From contig CAVQQD010000003.1 of assembly GCA_963714975.1 (NCBI GenBank), positions 416,001 through 480,000 of the forward strand: a stretch of 64,000 nt of DNA, written 5' to 3'. Shown piece by piece: positions 2,321-52,948 of this stretch. The translations under genes and the position numbers were made by a program. The stretch is from an uncultured Gammaproteobacteria bacterium. Its GTDB lineage: Bacteria > Pseudomonadota > Gammaproteobacteria > JAURND01. How positions within the stretch are numbered: position 1 is the first letter of the stretch; every line of letters starts with the position of its first letter. The notes under the pieces are model-generated. The model saw only the letters and a list, made by a program, of their open reading frames with translations, did not search any database and had not been told where the DNA came from.

Positions 2321-5173
<2,853 letters not shown>

Positions 5174-22042: not shown

Positions 22043-23961
22043 GCAATGAATATAATATTAGTGATGTGGATATTTACTTGTTTAACCAAGGCGATCATGT
22101 GCGGTTATATCAAAAATTAGGTGCACACTGTATCGTAAAAAATGCAGAGCCAGGGGTGCAGTTTGCAGTTTGGGCCCCTAACGCTAAACAAGTTTTTGTG
22201 ATGGGAGAGTTTAATGATTGGAATAAGACGAGTCATCCTCTGCAACCTTTAGCCAGTTCGGGTATTTGGGTTGGATTTATTCCTGGACTCTCCCAAGGAG
22301 AACATTATAAATATCATATTGTTTCTAATCGTCATAATTTATCTGGTGATAAGGCGGATCCATTGGCTTTTTATGCTGAGGTACCGCATCGCACTGCTTC
22401 GATTGTGTGGTCTTTGGATTATCAATGGCAAGATGCCGAATGGATGCAGAGCCGCAAAGAATATCAAGCGCATAATCAGCCGCTCGCGATTTATGAGGTG
22501 CATCTTGGTTCGTGGCGACGAATTCCAGAACAGGAAAATCGCTTTTTGAGCTATCGTGAATTGGCGCCACAATTAACCGATTACGTAAAACAGTTAGGAT
22601 TTACCCATGTGGAATTCATGCCAATTATGGAACATCCTTTTTATGGCTCCTGGGGTTATCAAATTACTAGCTATTTTGCCCCTACTAGCCGCTATGGTTC
22701 CCCTCAAGACTTGATGTATTTAATTGATTATCTCCATCAACACGGTATTGGGGTGATTTTGGATTGGGTTCCTTCTCATTTTCCTACGGATGATCATGGT
22801 TTAGCATTATTTGACGGGACACATTTATATGAACATGCGGACCCACGATTAGGATTTCATCCTGATTGGCATAGTGCTATTTTTAACTATGGTCGTTATG
22901 AGGTGCGTAGTTTTCTGTATAGTAGTGCGCTGTTTTGGTTGGATAAATATCATATTGATGGCTTACGGGTGGATGCAGTGGCTTCGATGTTATATCTAGA
23001 TTATTCACGTAAAGAAGGTGAATGGATTCCAAATCAATATGGTGGGCGAGAAAATATTGATGCCTTATTTTTTATTCGGCGACTCAACGAAGAGATTTAT
23101 AAAAATTATCCTGATGTACAAACTTTTGCCGAAGAATCTACTGATTGGGGGATGGTTTCCCGGCCTACTTATGTCGGAGGTCTAGGTTTTGGTTATAAGT
23201 GGGATATGGGTTGGATGCATGATACTTTATCTTATTTACACTATGATCCTATTCATCGAAGTTATCATCATAATGAATTAACTTTTCGTATGCTTTATGC
23301 TTTCTCGGAAAATTTTGTTTTGCCGCTGTCGCATGATGAAGTAGTGCATGGCAAGAGTAGCTTACTTGCGAAAATGCCAGGTGATGATTGGCAGAAGTTT
23401 GCAAACTTACGTTTATTATTGGGTTATCTCTATGCTCAACCAGGGAAAAAGCTGCTATTTATGGGAGGAGAGTGGGGCCAATGGGGCGAGTGGCAGCATG
23501 ACGAAAGTTTAGCATGGCATTTATTGCAGTATCCACTCCATCAAGGAATGCAAAAATGGGTGCAAATGCTGAACCAGCTTTATCGACAAGTAAAAGCTTT
23601 ACATCAATTAGATACGGAACCTTTAGGCTTTGAGTGGATTGATTGCGCAGACTATACCTCTAGTGTGATTAGTTTTCTTCGCCATTCGACTGAAAAAGAT
23701 AATTACGTGCTTGTGGTTATGAATTGTACTCCGGTAACACACCGGCAATATCGAATCGGAGTTCCTAATCAAGGTCTTTGGCGAGAGATTGCGAATAGTG
23801 ATGGTATGGAATTTGGGGGAAGTGGTCAGGAAAATTCAGGTGATCTGTGCACAACAGATACTCCTTGTCATCAGCGGCCTTATTCACTGAATTTAATTTT
23901 GCCTCCTTTAGGAATTCTTTTTTTGCAACCTCTCGAGGGGGCGGGGGGTCTATGCGATTAG
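22039..23961 (+). CDS. glgB: 1,4-alpha-glucan branching enzyme
   Basis: FAVWAPNA, YEVHLGSW, GSWGYQ, DWVPSHF, LRVDAVASM, AEEST, LSHDEVVHGK. Confidence 0.95.
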   Translation: MSNEYNISDVDIYLFNQGDHVRLYQKLGAHCIVKNAEPGVQFAVWAPNAKQVFVMGEFNDWNKTSHPLQPLASSGIWVGFIPGLSQGEHYKYHIVSNRHNLSGDKADPLAFYAEVPHRTASIVWSLDYQWQDAEWMQSRKEYQAHNQPLAIYEVHLGSWRRIPEQENRFLSYRELAPQLTDYVKQLGFTHVEFMPIMEHPFYGSWGYQITSYFAPTSRYGSPQDLMYLIDYLHQHGIGVILDWVPSHFPTDDHGLALFDGTHLYEHADPRLGFHPDWHSAIFNYGRYEVRSFLYSSALFWLDKYHIDGLRVDAVASMLYLDYSRKEGEWIPNQYGGRENIDALFFIRRLNEEIYKNYPDVQTFAEESTDWGMVSRPTYVGGLGFGYKWDMGWMHDTLSYLHYDPIHRSYHHNELTFRMLYAFSENFVLPLSHDEVVHGKSSLLAKMPGDDWQKFANLRLLLGYLYAQPGKKLLFMGGEWGQWGEWQHDESLAWHLLQYPLHQGMQKWVQMLNQLYRQVKALHQLDTEPLGFEWIDCADYTSSVISFLRHSTEKDNYVLVVMNCTPVTHRQYRIGVPNQGLWREIANSDGMEFGGSGQENSGDLCTTDTPCHQRPYSLNLILPPLGILFLQPLEGAGGLCD

Positions 23962-25850
23962 GAGCAACCTATTTAAGTGAAAATCAAACTGAATTTCTGC
24001 TGTATGCTCCTTACGCCGAAGCAGTTGAGCTGGTCATTGGGGCTCCTGGCGGGTTTAAACAAGCCATGCTAAGACAAGAAAAGGGTTATTTTCATTGTAT
24101 TGCTCAAAATGTGCCGCCAGGCAGTCTTTATTGGTACCGTTTCAACCAGCAATGCTATGCTGATCCAGCTTCTCGTTTTCAACCGGAAGGAATTTTCGGA
24201 CCTTCGCAAGTTATTGATGCCTGTTACAGCAATTCCCGCTCTATAGAACTTTGGCCGACGGGTGACGCGTGGGGCAACAACGCCGCGCGCAGCGAGCGAG
24301 CACGACGGGTTGCCCGCGCGGCAGGACCCGTCGGGGATCAGAGCTTCAGCGGGTGGCGGGGTTTAGCGCTTAGTCAGTATATTATTTATGAAGTACATGT
24401 AGGTACTTTTACTTCCGAGGGTACTTTTGCAGCACTGATGGCGAAGCTGGATTGGATAGGCGAGCTTGGTGTGACCGCCATTGAGTTAATGCCAGTGGCG
24501 CAATTTCCTGGAGATAGAAATTGGGGCTATGATGGCGTGTTTCCTTTTGCAGTGCAGAATAGCTACGGCACACCGGAACAATTAAAAGCGTTAGTGCAAG
24601 CCTGTCATCAGCGGGGTTTAGCAGTGATTTTGGACGTGGTTTATAATCACGTAGGCCCGGAAGGAAATCACTTCAATCAATTTGGTCCGTATTTTACCGA
24701 GCGGTATCACACGCCTTGGGGAGCTGCGATCAATTTTGATGGACCCAGCAATCATGAAATTCGCCGCTTCTTCATAGAAAATGCTTTAATGTGGGTTGGC
24801 GATTATCACATCGATGCGTTGCGTTTGGATGCTCTGCACGCGGTATTTGATTATTCTGCTGATCCTTTTTTGGCTGAATTAGCTGAGCAGGTTCATCATT
24901 TTGCTCGACAGACCGGTCGATTCATTTATTTATTTGCTGAAGCCGCTCGGAATGACTTGAAATTTGTTCATCGCAAAAAGCAGGGAGGATACGGCTTAGA
25001 TGTGCAGTGGAATGAGGATTTTCATCATGCCTTACATGCGGTATTAACGGGAGAAAGAAGCGGTTATTATCAAGATTTTGGTCAATTAGCTCAATTGGCA
25101 AAAGCTTTTAAAGAAGGCTACGTGCTTACCGAGCGGGGTCAATCTTCTGCGGAGGTTGCAGGGGAAAAATTTCTAGTATTTGGTCAAAATCACGATCAAA
25201 TTGGAAATCGTATGCTAGGAGAGCGCTTCACTCAGTTGCTTAATTTTGCCCAGCGCAAACTTGCCGCCAGTGTGATTTTGCTGTCTCCTTATATTCCACT
25301 GTTATTTATGGGAGAAGAATATGGTGAAGAAGCACGCTTTTGGTATTTTATCAGTCACGCTAATCCTAATTTAATTCAGGCAGTGAGAGAAGGTCGACGC
25401 AAAGAATTTAGCCTAGATGATAATTCGAATGAAATGCTGGACCCGCAAGCAATCGAGACATTTATACAATCGAAACTGCATCATCATTTGCGCCAGGAAG
25501 ACTGGCATAAACCATTATATACCTGGTACCAACAATTAATTTCCTATCGAAAAAATATACCGACATTAGCGCACTTAGACAAAATAAATACCGTTGTGCG
25601 TTGTAATACTGAATTGATGCTAATGACGGTACATCGGTGGCATCAAAGTGATGAAGTCTTTATTGTTTTCTTTTTTGTTAACACTGAATCTAAGATCTCT
25701 ATTACCACGCCACCTGGAGTATGGCACAAAATATTAGATTCCGAGGATAGAGAATGGGGAGGCAACGGCAGTTCCTTGCCCCCAAAAATTTCATCTGAGA
25801 CCCAATTAATATTGAGGGCATATGTTACAGCTATTTACCGTAAAACGTGA
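23952..25850 (+). CDS. treZ: Malto-oligosyltrehalose trehalohydrolase, with in-frame repeat insertion
   Basis: DPASRFQPEG, RNWGYDG, DVVYNH, LRLDALH, QNHDQIGNR; start taken at ATG23952. Confidence 0.92.
   Translation: MRLGATYLSENQTEFLLYAPYAEAVELVIGAPGGFKQAMLRQEKGYFHCIAQNVPPGSLYWYRFNQQCYADPASRFQPEGIFGPSQVIDACYSNSRSIELWPTGDAWGNNAARSERARRVARAAGPVGDQSFSGWRGLALSQYIIYEVHVGTFTSEGTFAALMAKLDWIGELGVTAIELMPVAQFPGDRNWGYDGVFPFAVQNSYGTPEQLKALVQACHQRGLAVILDVVYNHVGPEGNHFNQFGPYFTERYHTPWGAAINFDGPSNHEIRRFFIENALMWVGDYHIDALRLDALHAVFDYSADPFLAELAEQVHHFARQTGRFIYLFAEAARNDLKFVHRKKQGGYGLDVQWNEDFHHALHAVLTGERSGYYQDFGQLAQLAKAFKEGYVLTERGQSSAEVAGEKFLVFGQNHDQIGNRMLGERFTQLLNFAQRKLAASVILLSPYIPLLFMGEEYGEEARFWYFISHANPNLIQAVREGRRKEFSLDDNSNEMLDPQAIETFIQSKLHHHLRQEDWHKPLYTWYQQLISYRKNIPTLAHLDKINTVVRCNTELMLMTVHRWHQSDEVFIVFFFVNTESKISITTPPGVWHKILDSEDREWGGNGSSLPPKISSETQLILRAYVTAIYRKT
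24227..24353. repeat. Family-D repeat inserted in frame in treZ
   Basis: CAGCAATTCCCGCT...GACGGGTGACGCG...GGACCCGTC...TTCAGCGGG; GC-rich island in an AT-rich gene; homologues at 44961-45041 and 60016-60095. Confidence 0.85.
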
Positions 25851-42975: not shown

Positions 42976-43597
42976 TCTTACTTTTCCTCCCCTTCGACCG
43001 CCACGCCCTTAACCAAAAAATAAAACTGATCAACGCAGCAATTCCTAAGGTAGCGAGTAGTAATTCATACCAATGGGATTCGAGGGTGTTGTAAATGTGG
43101 TGCCATTTATTTCCTACGAAATAGCCAATGGACAGAAAAGTAGTGACCCAGATTGCCGCGCCGGTGTAGGAGAATAGGGCAAAGTGTCGATATTCCATTA
43201 AAGTAACTCCAGCCGCATAGCCGGTTAAATGCCTTACCCCAGGGATAAAGTAGCCGACCAGTAAAGTCCAGCGGCCAATCCGTTCAAACCAGTCATGCAC
43301 CCGCTGCATCCGTACTGCGGTAATGCCAATCCAGGGGCCAAATTTTTTAATGAGATAGGCGCCCGCCGTCTTGCCGATGAGATAACTAATCGTAATCCCA
43401 CAACACGCCCCCGCAAATGCGGCAATTGCCGTTGGAATTAGCTCTAGCTGGCCTTTGGATAACAAAACTCCTGACACGACCATTAATGTCTCATCAGGAA
43501 TGGGTAAGGCAAAGATGCCCAACATTAACAAAATAAACAGAGCAAAACTGCCGTACTGAGTGATCCAATTGGTTAATTCAGGTAAAAAACTTTCCAT
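42962..43597 (-). CDS. DedA family membrane protein
   Basis: [21 protein letters not shown]...F. Confidence 0.9.
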
Positions 43598-43689
43598 CCG
43601 CGCATAGTAGCAGAAATCCCCAGCGCAAGCGAGAGAGGGGATTTAAGTCCAGCAATTGTAAGTCACCACTTGTGTTAAAGTAGTTCCTA

Positions 43690-43853
43690 AGAGAGAAAAG
43701 GCTCCCTCGCAAGAAGGAGCCTGCGGGCGTGAGCGACCGGTCAGCAATAGGTTATACAGCCGTGGGAATCAAGGTACTCTAGCCCTAACTCTCAATACGT
43801 TTGAATAGTTCATTTGGGACTAAAGCTCCCGCTTACAATCGTAAATATCGAGG
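43690..43853 (+). ncRNA. Bridge RNA of IS110 element 1
   Basis: Target guides CAGCAAT (43742-43748) and GGGAAT (43764-43769); donor guides ATAGTTCAT (43805-43813) and CTTACAAT (43832-43839); each pair flanks a small hairpin. Confidence 0.8.
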
Positions 43854-43858
43854 TTACC

Positions 43859-44812
43859 ATGAAATTGTATAGTTCTTTTATCGGTATGGATATAGGGAAA
43901 TTTAATTTTGTTGTTGCCTTACATGGAGAAAAGATCACGAAAGAGTATCCAAATAGCGCTGAGGGCATTAAGGATTTTTTAAAAGATTATGAAGAAATTT
44001 TACCCACAGCATTTTGTGTGGTTGAAACGACAGGGGGTCATGAAAAAATTTTGTTACTGGCCCTGCGTTCTAATAGATATGCAGTCCATCGTGCAGATAC
44101 TAGGAAAGTAAAAAACTTTATCCATTCCTATGGTAAAAAGGCAAAAACAGATGCATTAGACGCTAAAGGACTAGCCCATTATAGTTATGAAAGGTATCAG
44201 GAATTAGATATTTATGAACCTCCTGATGAAACGGATATAGCACTTTTTACATTGGTAATGCGTAAAAATGATTTAACAGAGATGCTGGTTGCTGAAAAAA
44301 ATCGCCTTAAATCGCCTAATAATCATGAAATAGTAGAAATAAGTTGTAAAAAAATGATTACCATGCTCTCGGAAGAAATCAAATTGCTCAATGAGAAAAT
44401 AAATGAGCTGATTGAAGGTGTACCTTATTTAAGGGAAAAAAGGAAAGTTTTAAAGAGCATTCCAGGGATTGGTGATGTGCTGAGCTGTGAATTGATTACT
44501 TTATTGCCTGAACTAGGAACACTGGATAGGAGAAAAATAGCTGCTTTAGCTGGGTTAGCTCCTCAAGCAAATGAGAGTGGCAAATACAAAGGATACAGGC
44601 GCTGTGGTTATGGTCGTCAAGGAGTGAAGCCAAAATTATTTCTCGCTGCCATGGCGGCAAGGAATTCAAATTCGCATCTAAAAGTCTTTTATGAAAAATT
44701 GGTTGGGTCAGGTAAAAAGAAAATGGTGGCTTTAACCGCTTTAATGAGAAAAATTTTAGTCATCGCCAATGCAAAGGTAAGAGATTTCAATAAAGAATAT
44801 AATTTGGCTTGA
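43859..44812 (+). CDS. IS110 recombinase
   Basis: GMDIGK, VETTGG, AKTDALDA (DEDD), SIPGIG, GLAPQANESG. Confidence 0.93.
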   Translation: MKLYSSFIGMDIGKFNFVVALHGEKITKEYPNSAEGIKDFLKDYEEILPTAFCVVETTGGHEKILLLALRSNRYAVHRADTRKVKNFIHSYGKKAKTDALDAKGLAHYSYERYQELDIYEPPDETDIALFTLVMRKNDLTEMLVAEKNRLKSPNNHEIVEISCKKMITMLSEEIKLLNEKINELIEGVPYLREKRKVLKSIPGIGDVLSCELITLLPELGTLDRRKIAALAGLAPQANESGKYKGYRRCGYGRQGVKPKLFLAAMAARNSNSHLKVFYEKLVGSGKKKMVALTALMRKILVIANAKVRDFNKEYNLA

Positions 44813-44960
44813 AAGAGCACCAAGGAGGGTGCGGTCAAGCCAAATCGACAAGCCCGCTCAGCGGGCGCGTCAGTAGGGAGAAACCCTAGTTTAGGCTGGG
44901 GTTTATAGACTTGTATGCTTAAAAATTTTATTTTTTTAAAATTTTTAAGACATAGTTGAT

Positions 44961-45041
44961 TCCCGCTGAAACCCTGCTCGCCGACGGGTCCCCGCCTGCG
45001 CGTCACCCGTCGTTCAAATGGCTGCAGAGCTGGAATTGCTG
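44961..45041. repeat. Remainder of the family-D repeat split by IS110 element 1
   Basis: TCCCGCTGAAACCC...GACGGGTCC...CGCGTCACCCGTC...AGCTGGAATTGCTG. Confidence 0.85.
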
Positions 45042-45119
45042 GTTCACAGTAGACATCAACTGCTTTTTTTAGGATGATAGCCTGAGCTGCAACAATTCCA
45101 ACTAAATGAGGTAAATACA

Positions 45120-46034
45120 ATGAGATACGTAGAAACTCAATCAATTGAATTGGCGGAAGATAATGCTAAACGCTTTGCCTATTCTACTATGGCAGCAGCA
45201 GCGGTTCAGATGGGTCTATTTGCTTATGCATTAAGTACCTATGATCCAGAGCGGATCCCCAATGCATTTGGGTATTTAACTATGTGGCAATTAGCACTGT
45301 TAGCCATGACTTGCTTAGTGGCTGCAATCAAAGTGGCAAATATTTATCGCAACACAAAATCATCTGATAAAGATCCTGGCAAAAAACGAATCCACCAATT
45401 ACTTGCGCTGCGAGATGACCCCAATAATTTAAGAAGTTTGACGTTTTATGTCTCAATAGTGGCCAGTGCTTTATTTTGGGGCATATTGGCCAAGGATTAT
45501 ATAGTGGCGCTGGACTATGAGAAATTAGGAGTGAGTTTTGCATTCCATGGTTTGGGCTTCTTACTTTATTTGGCCTATATTTCTTACAACCGTATAGACA
45601 TTTCTCACAACACAGCTGATTGCTGTGCTGGGAAAGACAAGGAGGATCCTGGGGAGGAGGATTATGTCGATTTGGCGGAGAGCAAAGATGAGAGTGCGGG
45701 GAAGAGCAAGCAGGTCTCTGCATGGGATAAGTTCATGCAGTTCTTTCATGACCACCCCTATGTAAGAAATGGGTTATTTTGCGCTACTTATTTAGGTTTT
45801 TCAGTGGCTTTAGCAAAAGGAGGGGTAAACAGTCCTTTAGGTCAACCCTATTTCTATGAAGTGCTAGATTGGAATAATCACTTGTCTACTGCGCTCATTT
45901 TTGCCAGCATAGGATTAGTCGCCATGTTGGCCCTCACTCTTGCCTGTGGTTGGGCTCAAACCAAAGTACGTGATTGGCGGGATCAGGCAGAGCGAGAACA
46001 GTATCAGACTGTTGATCATACTGCTGGCAAATAG
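45120..46034 (+). CDS. Membrane protein, FAR-17a/AIG1/rolling-stone-like
   Basis: YLTMWQL, LFWGIL, FHG, YFYEVLDW motifs; about 6 TM segments. Confidence 0.5.
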   Translation: MRYVETQSIELAEDNAKRFAYSTMAAAAVQMGLFAYALSTYDPERIPNAFGYLTMWQLALLAMTCLVAAIKVANIYRNTKSSDKDPGKKRIHQLLALRDDPNNLRSLTFYVSIVASALFWGILAKDYIVALDYEKLGVSFAFHGLGFLLYLAYISYNRIDISHNTADCCAGKDKEDPGEEDYVDLAESKDESAGKSKQVSAWDKFMQFFHDHPYVRNGLFCATYLGFSVALAKGGVNSPLGQPYFYEVLDWNNHLSTALIFASIGLVAMLALTLACGWAQTKVRDWRDQAEREQYQTVDHTAGK

Positions 46035-51734: not shown

Positions 51735-51774
51735 CATCCTTGTATCTTAATTCTAATCACTCAATGTGGTTAAA

Positions 51775-51982: not shown

Positions 51983-52948
51983 ATGAAGAAAGCATTTCTA
52001 GGCATTGATATCAGTAAAAATACATTTGATGTAGCTGTGCTAATGGAAGATAAGATAAAAACTCAAAAATTCAACAATAACGAGCAAGGCTTTAATAAAT
52101 TACTTGTATGGCTAAACCAGAAGGAAATCGTGTTGTCTCAAGCTTGTATGGAAGCAACCAGTATTTACGGGCAGGCATTAGCCGAATTTCTTTATGCTCA
52201 AGAAATCCCTATAAGCGTTGTTAATCCTGCGAGAATTAAAGGATTTTCTCAAAGTGAATTAGCCCGCTCTAAAAATGATATTCTTGATGCAAAATTAATT
52301 GCAAGATTTTGTAAGTTGATAGGCCCAGAATTATGGCAACCAACTCCTGAACCGATTAAAATATTACAGCAATGGGTTAGGAGATTGGATGATTTAATCG
52401 CTATGCACAGACAAGAAGAAAACCGATTAGAAGTTTCTGATCATTGTTTAAAGGAGCACATACAAGAGAACATTAGCCACTTAGAAAACAATATTAAGGA
52501 AGTTAAAAATGTCATTAAAAATCACATAAATAGCGATCCTGACATGAAGAAAAAAAGCAAGCTATTGCAATCTATTCCTGGTATTGGAGAAGCAACTACA
52601 GCGCAGATATTGGCTTTTATTGGGAATGTGAGTAAATTCAATAATGCGAAAGAATTGGCGGCATTCGTTGGTCTTAATCCCAAGCAACGACAATCAGGAA
52701 CCTCTATCAATGGTAGAGCTAGACTCTCTAAAACAGGTGATTCGGCTCTAAGAAAAGCATTTTATATGCCCGCTGTTGTCGCCATGAGACATAACCCAAT
52801 ACTCAGAAATTTTTCTATGCGACTAGAAAAAACCGGCAAACACAAAATGGTTATTATTGGCGCAGTAATGAGAAAGCTTGTTCATATGATTTACGGGATA
52901 CTAAAATCTGAAACCGTGTTTGATCAAAATATATTAAAATTAGCTTGA
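51983..52948 (+). CDS. IS110 recombinase
   Basis: [35 protein letters not shown]. Confidence 0.94.

What the first reader, a model, noticed from the sequence alone, without database searches (positions are those of the whole stretch)
43650..45041. A second, AT-core IS110 whose bridge RNA targets the host family-D repeat terminus
Seen: junctions CAGCA-AT|TGTAAG and ATAGTTG-AT|TCCCGCTG. The empty site CAGCAATTCCCGCT is the repeat terminus and occurs intact at 24227. The upstream non-coding region has CAGCAAT and GGGAAT (target), then ATAGTTCAT (one mismatch) and CTTACAAT (donor). Joining the ends gives TTGATT-18-TAAAGT with an extended -10 TG. Inference: this is a bridge recombinase with a non-CT core and longer right guides than IS621, with ~150 bp of extra structured sequence after the ORF. 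It could act as an orthogonal tool to element 2. The site inside treZ is a predicted future target.
Basis: partly seen in the sequence, partly recalled or inferred. Interest (0 to 1): 0.78.

Follow-up and report, generated by a model that had tools for sequence, protein, structure and literature searches.

The report
Bridge-RNA insertion sequence targeting host repeat
This is a genuine IS110-type mobile element whose own non-coding RNA carries short guide segments that match both its ends and the tip of a host repeat into which it inserts; it is a well-supported new member of a recently described kind rather than a new kind of system.

Summary
Window 43657-44960 is a 1304-bp IS110-group element. 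It has a DEDD/Ser recombinase, a 201-nt left end and a 149-nt right end. It sits inside the terminus (CAGCA-AT-TCCCGCT) of a GC-rich palindromic host repeat.

The genome holds four near-identical copies, one of them broken by an IS3-like element, plus two remnants. All carry the same junctions. The left end folds into two internal loops whose arms equal left target + AT, the reverse complement of AT + right target, left donor (one mismatch) and the reverse complement of AT + right donor.

The decisive test was comparative. Four genomes and 80 metagenome contigs hold relatives with the same donor ends but different flanks, and the target guides follow the flanks:
- Left flank 7-mer found in the element's own loop region in 46 of 70 lineages, against 0.9% for non-cognate pairs.
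- Right guide found in 38 of 50, against 3.6%.

The RNA stems covary. The core is AT in 56 of 56 right guides.

It is a new member of a known kind. One item stays open: the first ~100 nt of the right end are strongly structured and much better conserved than synonymous sites in the one close relative. Activity, RNA ends and orthogonality to the other IS110 were not tested.

The parts
43650..43656 (+). Left half of the target plus the left copy of the core: CAGCA + AT. This is the outer tip of the host repeat.
   Evidence: All 5 left junctions in the genome, and a sixth remnant, end in CAGCAAT.
43657..44960 (+). The insertion sequence, 1304 bp, TGTAAG...ATAGTTGAT, counted with one copy of the AT core.
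   Evidence: three full copies; the copies differ by 1 nt; flanks diverge exactly here.
43673..43681 (+). Extended -10 (TGT TAAAGT) of the promoter that is completed only when the ends are joined. The -35 TTGATT comes from 44956-44960 plus T43657.
   Evidence: Read. A TGnTAnnn(T/A) box at this place is seen, by my reading and not counted, in most of the 56 aligned left ends. Function is inferred.
43689..43850 (+). Predicted bridge RNA of about 160 nt: basal stem, 5' hairpin, target-binding loop arm, donor-binding loop arm. Both ends are inferred, not mapped.
   Evidence: Fold. Alignment of 56 left ends. Stem covariation.
43742..43748 (+). Left target guide (LTG) CAGCAAT = left target + core, same sense.
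43764..43771 (+). Right target guide (RTG) GGGAAT = reverse complement of AT+TCCC. It is followed by CA, the complement of donor positions 6-7 (TG), in the place of the IS621 'handshake guide'.
   Evidence: C in 54 of 56, then A in 32 of 56. The handshake rule is from PMC11208158.
43805..43813 (+). Left donor guide (LDG) ATAGTTCAT. It matches the right-end terminus ATAGTTGAT except for C43811.
   Evidence: In G054 both the guide and the element end read ATGGTTG.
43832..43839 (+). Right donor guide (RDG) CTTACAAT = reverse complement of AT+TGTAAG (left-end terminus).
   Evidence: TTACAATC is invariant in 56 of 56.
43859..44812 (+). Recombinase gene, 317 aa. GAGG lies 8 nt before the ATG.
   Evidence: Pfam PF01548 and PF02371. 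NCBIfam NF033542 at 160.7 bits, cut-off 140. PDB hits ISCro4 and IS621 transposases.
44813..44925 (+). Right-end structured module (three GC-containing hairpins). Function unknown.
44926..44960 (+). A/T-only palindrome, then the donor left arm GAC-ATAGTTG-AT. It supplies the -35 and a possible UP-like tract in the circle.
   Evidence: Read. The terminal CAT(A/G)GTTGAT is shared by relatives.
44961..45043 (+). Right half of the target (TCCC...) and the rest of the split host repeat. It ends in the inverted terminus GGAATTGCTGG.
24227..24240 (+). An unoccupied copy of the target, CAGCAATTCCCGCT. It is the tip of a repeat lying in frame inside a GH13-type ORF (23847-25850).

Best explanation
Window 43657-44960 is an IS110-group insertion sequence that moves by bridge-RNA-guided recombination.

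Its 317-aa DEDD/Ser recombinase is expected to bind an RNA of about 160 nt transcribed from the left end. That RNA has two internal loops:
- The donor loop carries AUAGUUCAU and CUUACAAU, which pair in the same way with the joined element ends ATAGTTG-AT-TGTAAG.

Recombination at the shared AT dinucleotide puts the circular element into the tip of a GC-rich palindromic host repeat without a target duplication.

In the circle, the right end supplies a -35 (TTGATT) to the extended -10 in the left end, so RNA and recombinase should be made mainly from the excised form.

Shown here: element limits, copies, protein family, guide matches, guide-flank covariation, stem covariation. Inferred: transcription start, RNA-protein binding, circle formation, present-day activity.
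For: Protein:
- PF01548 + PF02371 and NF033542 'IS110 family RNA-guided transposase' above cut-off.
- Best solved relatives are ISCro4 (E 9e-32) and IS621 (E 5e-29) transposases. The motifs that hold the IS621 catalytic D/E/D/D/S are aligned and conserved: D11, E56, D98, D101, S240 here. The residue roles are from PMC11208158.

Copies:
- 3 full copies differing by 1 nt, 1 copy split by an IS3-like element, 1 left-end fragment and 1 17-nt remnant. All follow CAGCAAT, and 4 of 4 right junctions are followed by TCCCG.

Target:
- The 11-mer CAGCAATTCCC occurs 36 times against 0.96 expected, and the 14-mer 25 times against 0.013.
- It is the inverted terminus of a repeat of about 87-147 bp, with 89 termini within 1 mismatch.

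RNA:
- The single-sequence fold gives both internal loops with the guides on the loop strands.
- On 56 aligned left ends, my named structure has 94.8% of cells paired, against 87.2% in shuffles and 34-53% when slid. 15 of 26 pairs carry compensatory changes, and 118 cells are doubly changed against 28 expected.

Guide-flank covariation:
- Sample: 72 non-redundant lineages, from 77 records (72 pattern matches in 80 metagenome contigs with a recognisable left-end start, plus 5 genome lineages).
- The last 7 nt of the left flank is present in the element's own target-loop region in 46 of 70, and in non-cognate regions in 44 of 4768.
- The reverse complement of AT + 4 nt of right flank is present in 38 of 50, against 83 of 2288.
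- Hand-checked in 5 of 5 genome lineages with five different targets.
- Reconstructed empty sites exist in relatives' genomes: 177 copies in G166 and 6 in G205, with reversed-pattern controls at 0.

Orientation of guides equals the published rule (PMC11208160).
Against: - No direct evidence of RNA, circle or movement. No RNA run holds the locus, and the four runs laid gave only 151-264-nt contig pieces with no joints. The circle junction 15-mer is absent from the assembly (0 hits), as expected for an assembly.
- The single-sequence fold of the left end is not unusually stable: z = -0.93, with 41 of 200 shuffles as good.
- Rfam 15 gave no hit in 43000-45600 at E <= 1 apart from an irrelevant one.
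- The LDG has C where the donor needs G, the only such case among 56.
- The window copy has a private A at 43794 where the other copies carry G and most aligned relatives read G (my reading).
- 24 of 70 and 12 of 50 lineages failed the exact-match covariation test. By eye several of these are mis-set element ends or contig ends, but I did not resolve them one by one.
- The 51 metagenome rows of alignment A1 were chosen because their left flank matched their loop region within 1 mismatch. Guide statistics taken from A1 are therefore conditioned on that choice.
- In all 56 the base after the RDG core is C, complementary to the element's own donor G7. In IS621 such cognate pairing inhibits strand exchange (PMC11208158), so details of the mechanism may differ.
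Confidence: 0.9

Rival explanations
1. The element is a true bridge-RNA IS, but this lineage, or at least the window copy, is now immobile. A mismatch in the donor guide and a point change in the RNA have crippled it, and the copies are relics.
For: - LDG position 7 is C in this element only; it is G in 53 of 56 and A in 2 of 56.
- The window copy carries a private A43794 in the RNA between the two arms.
- One copy is interrupted and two are remnants.
- No circle junction in the assembly and no joints in the reads laid.
Against: - Four copies at different sites differ by at most 1 nt over 1304 bp, which points to recent movement with this very guide.
- In IS621, LD position 7 is the one mismatch-tolerant donor position (PMC11208160, section 10).
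- The ORF is intact with all catalytic motifs.
Confidence: 0.15
2. Target choice is made by the protein alone, and the four guide-like matches in the left end are chance or by-products of the ends.
For: Each short match alone is not rare in shuffles. GGGAAT appears in 10,825 of 200,000 shuffles.
Against: - Guide-flank covariation across 70 and 50 lineages, with non-cognate rates of 0.9% and 3.6%.
- The positions are fixed on the two strands of conserved internal loops.
- Both target guides together occur in only 143 of 200,000 shuffles.
Confidence: 0.02
3. It is an IS1111-type element whose guide RNA (seekRNA/bridge RNA) is encoded in the structured right end.
For: The right end is long for this clade and very structured.
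Against: - The right end holds no 7-mer of target or donor in either sense, and only the 6-mer CCCGCT of its own palindrome.
- The left end is longer than the right (201 against 149 nt) and holds all four guides.
- The sub-terminal inverted repeat is at most 3 bp, perfect in 28 of 54 relatives, not the 7-17 bp that defines the IS1111 group (PMC11208160).
- Relatives work with right ends as short as 1-5 nt.
Confidence: 0.03

Closest known systems
IS621 (E. coli) and IS622/ISCro4 (Citrobacter rodentium) bridge recombinase systems, IS110 group
   Same: - Same two protein domains and catalytic motifs; these are the best solved-structure hits.
- Bridge RNA encoded in the left end, with a target loop and a donor loop.
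- LTG/LDG read like the top strand, RTG/RDG are reverse complements, and the core is included in the pairing.
- Junction-made promoter.
- The base after the RTG core is complementary to donor position 7, as for the IS621 handshake guide.
   Different: - The solved IS621 and ISCro4 proteins are distant: E 5e-29 and 9e-32 over about 300 aligned residues, roughly a third of positions identical by my eye. Identity was not computed.
- Core AT instead of CT.
- Right guides are longer: 6 and 8 bp with the core, against 4 bp for RTG-RT and 2 bp of RD beyond the core stated for IS621.
- LT is shorter: 5-6 nt match in most flanks here.
- The LDG does not pair with the core in most relatives.
- The base after the RDG core is an invariant C that fits the element's own donor, not the target.
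- A 149-nt right end with a conserved structured module.
REP-targeting IS110-family elements (ISPpu9, ISPpu10 of Pseudomonas putida; survey by Tobes and Pareja 2006)
   Same: Insertion at one fixed position and orientation in a GC-rich palindromic repeat that is present in many copies. Sources: PMC12288879 and 10.64898/2026.03.19.712850, abstracts only; PMC1525189, search listing only.
   Different: - Unrelated repeat and target sequence.
- Those elements are treated as IS1111-type or have downstream RNAs (Ssr9). Here the guide RNA is upstream.
- Whether the repeat's stem-loop adds specificity here, as reported for ISPpu10, was not tested.
IS1111 group (seekRNA elements; Siddiquee et al. 2024, PMC11187229)
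   Same: DEDD transposase, circular intermediate, RNA with segments matching both strands of the target (abstract and passages).
   Different: In the IS1111 group the non-coding region is downstream, the sub-terminal inverted repeats are 7-17 bp, and the order of the strand-matching segments is reversed. None of these applies here.

Membership tests
IS110 family, IS110 group (bridge recombinase elements) | [quoted passage not shown] | tested here: met
   - E 3.9e-19 and 9.6e-14.
- NF033542 at 160.7 bits against cut-off 140.
- GMD11IG, VVE56TTG, KTD98ALD101A and NES240G aligned to the IS621 motifs. The numbering offset of the PDB chain was not resolved.
IS110 family, IS110 group (bridge recombinase elements) | No target-site duplication; a short core shared by target and joined ends. 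| tested here: met
   Occupied sites read CAGCA-ATT-GTAAG...GTTG-ATT-CCCG and empty sites read CAGCAATTCCCG. The guides overlap on AT.
IS110 family, IS110 group (bridge recombinase elements) | Long left non-coding end that encodes the RNA; left end longer than right end. | tested here: met
   Left end 201 nt, right end 149 nt. All four guides are in the left end. The clade median right end is 34 nt.
IS110 family, IS110 group (bridge recombinase elements) | RNA with two internal loops carrying LTG/RTG and LDG/RDG in the published strand arrangement. | tested here: met
   for structure and covariation. The rule is from PMC11208160.
IS110 family, IS110 group (bridge recombinase elements) | Target guides covary with insertion-site flanks across orthologues. 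| tested here: met
   46 of 70 against 44 of 4768, and 38 of 50 against 83 of 2288; 5 of 5 genome lineages.
IS110 family, IS110 group (bridge recombinase elements) | Promoter reconstituted across the joined right and left ends. | tested here: inconclusive
   Sequence only. TTGATT-18-TGtTAAAGT is read, and by eye the -10 box recurs in most of the 56 left ends. No transcript data.
IS110 family, IS110 group (bridge recombinase elements) | Short 2-3-bp inverted repeat flanking the donor arms (Durrant 2024, Extended Data Fig. 10 legend). | tested here: inconclusive
   GAC...GTC here. A perfect 3-nt inverted repeat is present in 28 of 54 relatives.
IS110 family, IS110 group (bridge recombinase elements) | Circular intermediate, and RNA bound by the recombinase. 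| not testable with these tools
   Reads laid gave no joints. No RNA holder was listed.
IS1111 group | Sub-terminal inverted repeats of 7-17 bp, and the guide RNA encoded in a long right end. | tested here: not met
   at most 3 bp, and no target or donor 7-mer in the right end.
Rfam RNA families | Match to a curated covariance model over the left or right end. | tested here: not met
   nothing at E <= 1 in 43000-45600 except a 35-nt chance match outside the element. I do not know whether Rfam 15 holds a bridge-RNA model.

The most novel reading that the evidence does not exclude
The first ~100 nt of the right end (44813-44925) may be a second selected functional module of this sub-lineage. It could be an RNA in the recombinase 3' UTR, or a cis-acting DNA site that controls expression or excision, rather than filler.

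It is 92-94% identical to the only close relative (L065) over element nt 1101-1250, where third codon positions of the ORF are 53% identical. It folds with z = -7.4. Most members of the clade lack it.
Probability: 0.3. Interest if true: 0.55.

Novelty: new member of a known kind. Interest (0 to 1): 0.38.

Why it matters
The element gives a clean natural example, with more than 50 relatives, of a bridge-RNA clade fixed on an AT core.

- Its right guides are longer than in IS621. That is the change that rescued non-CT cores when IS621 was engineered (PMC11208160, passage). The natural design therefore supports the engineering rule and offers a candidate recombinase with a different core and donor.
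- It shows the usual ecological logic of these elements: a safe, multi-copy landing pad at the tip of a host repeat, with about 36 sites of which 4-6 were ever used.
- None of this changes the picture of how IS110 elements work.
- The open points could teach something new: the conserved right-end module, the invariant C next to the RDG core, and the GU/AT mixed cores in some relatives.

Tried and rejected
Searches that gave nothing useful:
- Rfam scan of 43000-45600 at E <= 1: no relevant family.
- The search for related loci in genome contigs with the protein: only 2 distant actinobacterial hits.
- tblastn against plasmids: 2278 records, all under 60% identity, and no more than 36.4% among the 15 rows listed. 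No close named IS was found.

Sequencing runs: no RNA holder was listed, and six runs hold only small shares. Four were laid and gave six contig pieces of 151-264 nt, with no joints and no loose ends. This is no evidence either way on expression, excision or habitat.

Right-end module:
- Not related to host repeats; blastn-short gave only 13-21-nt matches.
- Present in L065 only among the loci held.
- Not found in 400 other genomes of a phylum sample or in viral contigs.
- The right end as guide carrier was rejected.
- The promoter/terminator scan of the integrated locus found no + strand terminator after the ORF and cannot see the circle promoter.

Literature:
- 'AT core' + IS110 + bridge RNA: 0 papers.
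- The end motif + IS110: 0 papers.
- These two searches do not show that AT-core IS110s are undescribed. ISfinder could not be queried.

Host organism: not identified. Its order has only 9 species genomes in the held collection, and the genome was served without the limits applied to some others. I therefore treated it as an ordinary environmental bacterium. Its identity should be checked before bench work.

Not resolved: the 24 of 70 and 12 of 50 misses were not examined individually.
Full report
**What is there**

The mobile unit is 1304 bp (43657-44960). It comprises:
- a 201-nt non-coding left end;
- an ORF at 43859-44812 (317 aa);
- a 149-nt non-coding right end.

The ORF carries PF01548 and PF02371 and passes NCBIfam NF033542, 'IS110 family RNA-guided transposase' (160.7 bits, cut-off 140). 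Its best solved relatives are the ISCro4 and IS621 transposases (E 9e-32 and 5e-29). The motifs that hold the IS621 catalytic D, E, D, D and S are conserved: D11, E56, D98, D101 and S240 here. The residue roles are taken from passages of PMC11208158.

**Copies and target**

The 2.56-Mb genome (3 contigs) holds:
- three full copies, of which the window copy differs from the other two by one base, A43794;
- a fourth copy cut in its right end by an IS3-like element;
- a 162-nt left-end fragment at 96% identity;
- a 17-nt left-end remnant.

Every left junction follows CAGCAAT, and 4 of 4 right junctions are followed by TCCCG. The uninterrupted site CAGCAATTCCCGCT occurs 25 times (0.013 expected). 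The guide-defined 11-mer CAGCAATTCCC occurs 36 times (0.96 expected).

This sequence is the inverted terminus of a GC-rich palindromic repeat. Units measure about 87-147 bp, with 46 + 43 termini within one mismatch and 59 BLAST hits to the rebuilt unit. The site at 24227 is one of these. It lies in frame inside a 667-aa ORF with CBM48, alpha-amylase and DUF3459 domains, between the CBM48 and catalytic parts.

**The RNA**

Folded alone, the left end gives a 5' hairpin and two arms, each with an internal loop. The energy is not unusual (z = -0.93).

- In the first loop the 5' strand holds CAGCAAU and the 3' strand holds GGGAAU.
- In the second loop the strands hold AUAGUUCAU and CUUACAAU.

According to Durrant et al. 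[quoted passage not shown] That is exactly the arrangement seen. LTG and RTG overlap only on AT, which fixes the core within the ambiguous ATT.

**Comparative test**

A class-wide sample of 400 genomes gave relatives of 47-57% protein identity in six genomes, three of them with several copies. Their ends are the same, (AT)TGTAAGT ... CAT(A/G)GTTGAT, and their flanks differ. In five lineages with five different targets, the aligned LTG and RTG each spell their own flanks:

| Lineage | LTG / RTG | Site |
|---|---|---|
| G054 | TAGCTAT / TAGAAT | TAGCT-AT-TCTA |
| G166 | CTCGCAAT / CGTCAT | CTCGCA-AT-GACG |
| G205 | GCAATCAT / GTGTTAAT | GCAATC-AT-TAACAC |
| G294 | ACGACAT / ATAGAT | ACGAC-AT-CTAT |

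The fifth lineage is the window element itself (CAGCAAT / GGGAAT for CAGCA-AT-TCCC).

In G054 the donor end and the LDG both read ATGGTTG. The rebuilt empty sites exist in those genomes: 177 times in G166 and 6 in G205, with controls at 0. Relatives therefore also land in multi-copy sequences.

A pattern for the conserved donor loop then found 82 stretches in metagenome contigs, of which 80 loci were returned. From these:
- 81 pattern matches were found and 9 were dropped for lacking a recognisable left-end start;
- with the five genome lineages this gave 77 records and 72 non-redundant loop regions;
- the last 7 nt of the left flank is in the element's own loop region in 46 of 70, and in other elements' regions in 44 of 4768;
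- the reverse complement of AT + 4 right-flank bases is found in 38 of 50, against 83 of 2288;
- a fifth right-flank base matches in only 15 of 50, so RTG pairing is 6 bp including the core.

Some misses are visibly mis-set ends or contig ends. I did not resolve them all.

**Structure**

The 56 aligned left ends are the window, 4 genome lineages and 51 metagenome rows. The 51 were chosen for having a left-flank match within 1 mismatch and enough sequence. On these, RNAalifold found 23 pairs, 9 with compensatory changes. My named six-helix structure gives:
- 94.8% paired cells, against 87.2% in column shuffles (0 of 500 reach it) and 34-53% when slid;
- 15 of 26 pairs with changes on both sides;
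- 118 doubly changed cells against 28 expected.

Clade-wide statistics:

| Feature | Count |
|---|---|
| RTG core AU | 56 of 56 |
| LTG core AU | 49 of 56 (GU in 5) |
| Base after the RTG core is C | 54 of 56 |
| That C followed by A | 32 of 56 |

CA is the complement of donor positions 6-7 (TG). This is the place and logic of the IS621 handshake guide (PMC11208158).

**Promoter**

The left end carries TGTTAAAGT (43673-43681). By my reading, not counted, an extended -10 recurs at that place in most of the 56 aligned left ends. In the joined form TTGATT lies 18 nt upstream. In the integrated form that position reads GCAATT. A start about 7 nt after the -10 would fall at the first base of the conserved basal stem (AAGAGAG, 43689). 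All of this is inference from sequence.

**Differences from IS621**

- The core is AT, not CT.
- The right guides are longer.
- The LDG does not pair with the core in most relatives. The two bases after position 7 are AT in only 9 of 56.
- The base after the RDG core is C in 56 of 56 and fits the element's own donor G7, which in IS621 would hinder strand exchange.
- This element alone has C at LDG position 7, where relatives have G in 53, A in 2 and C in 1. IS621 tolerates mismatches at just that position (PMC11208160, section 10), and the near-identity of four copies argues the element moved with it.

**The right end**

The right end folds into four hairpins (z = -7.4). The clade's median right end is 34 nt (range 1-396; 14 of 52 exceed 100 nt), so most of it is dispensable for the mechanism.

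Against the one close relative (L065, same length), conservation runs as follows:

| Region | Nucleotide identity |
|---|---|
| ORF overall | 73% |
| ORF third codon positions | 53% |
| Left end | 84% |
| Right end | 87% |
| Element nt 1101-1250 | 92-94% |

The module has no target or donor 7-mer and no Rfam hit. It shows no similarity to host repeats and has no other relative in what I could search. With two sequences no covariation test is possible. Selection on a second function and recent exchange of ends are both open.

**Verdict**

The system is a member of the IS110 bridge-recombinase kind described in 2024, not a new kind. I could not find this clade or an AT-core natural clade named in two literature searches. 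The relevant supplementary tables and ISfinder were out of reach.

Noticed in passing
G000:C3:403858-405270 (locus L004 about 2703-4115): An IS3-family element sits exactly in the centre of the right-end palindrome GCCCGCTC^AGCGGGC of one copy of the IS. It has an rve integrase ORF of 282 aa, terminal inverted repeats TATAG(C/T)GGGCG and a 3-bp duplication CTC.
   Followed up: partly
G000:C2:41382-41420: A repeat terminus carries only the first 17 nt of the left end (TGTAAGTCACCACTTGT) between CAGCAAT and TCTCGCTG. This is a scar of partial excision or an internal deletion. The mechanism was not worked out.
   Followed up: partly
G000:C3:400239-400400: An older 162-nt left-end fragment with 7 differences. 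Its LTG reads GGCAGCAAT, fitting its own flank GCAGCAAT. Its RTG reads GAGAAT and its LDG position 7 is A.
   Followed up: partly
window 24227-24352, inside ORF 23847-25850: A full copy of the GC-rich palindromic repeat lies in frame inside a GH13-type gene, between its CBM48 and catalytic domains. The host repeat therefore also colonises coding sequence without breaking the frame.
   Followed up: partly
window 51983-52948 (ORF); left end near 51740: A second, unrelated IS110-family element of 321 aa, about 30% identical, with 5 copies in the genome. Its left flanks converge on TTTGAC(A/T)T before CCTTGTATC. Its RNA and core were not analysed.
   Followed up: partly
loci L042, L069, L074, L079, L115: In 5 of 56 relatives the LTG core and the left junction read GT, while the RTG core and the right junction read AT. 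This fits a GT target core read by the RTG through a G-U wobble, with each junction keeping a different core.
   Followed up: no
window 43840 and alignment A1 column 272: The base after the RDG core is C in 56 of 56 relatives. It is complementary to the element's own donor G7 rather than to the variable target position 7. This is unlike the IS621 handshake rule.
   Followed up: partly
window 43794: The window copy has A where the other genomic copies have G and where most aligned relatives read G by eye. The base lies between the two arms of the predicted RNA.
   Followed up: yes
window 43827-43833: TCCCGCT, the right half of the target in the same sense, also occurs in the donor-loop inner stem. 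That stretch is conserved in relatives with other targets, so this is probably chance.
   Followed up: partly
genome G166 (handle only): The 13-nt empty target of the related element occurs 177 times (86 + 91) in a 2.2-Mb genome, so that host carries a very abundant short repeat.
   Followed up: no
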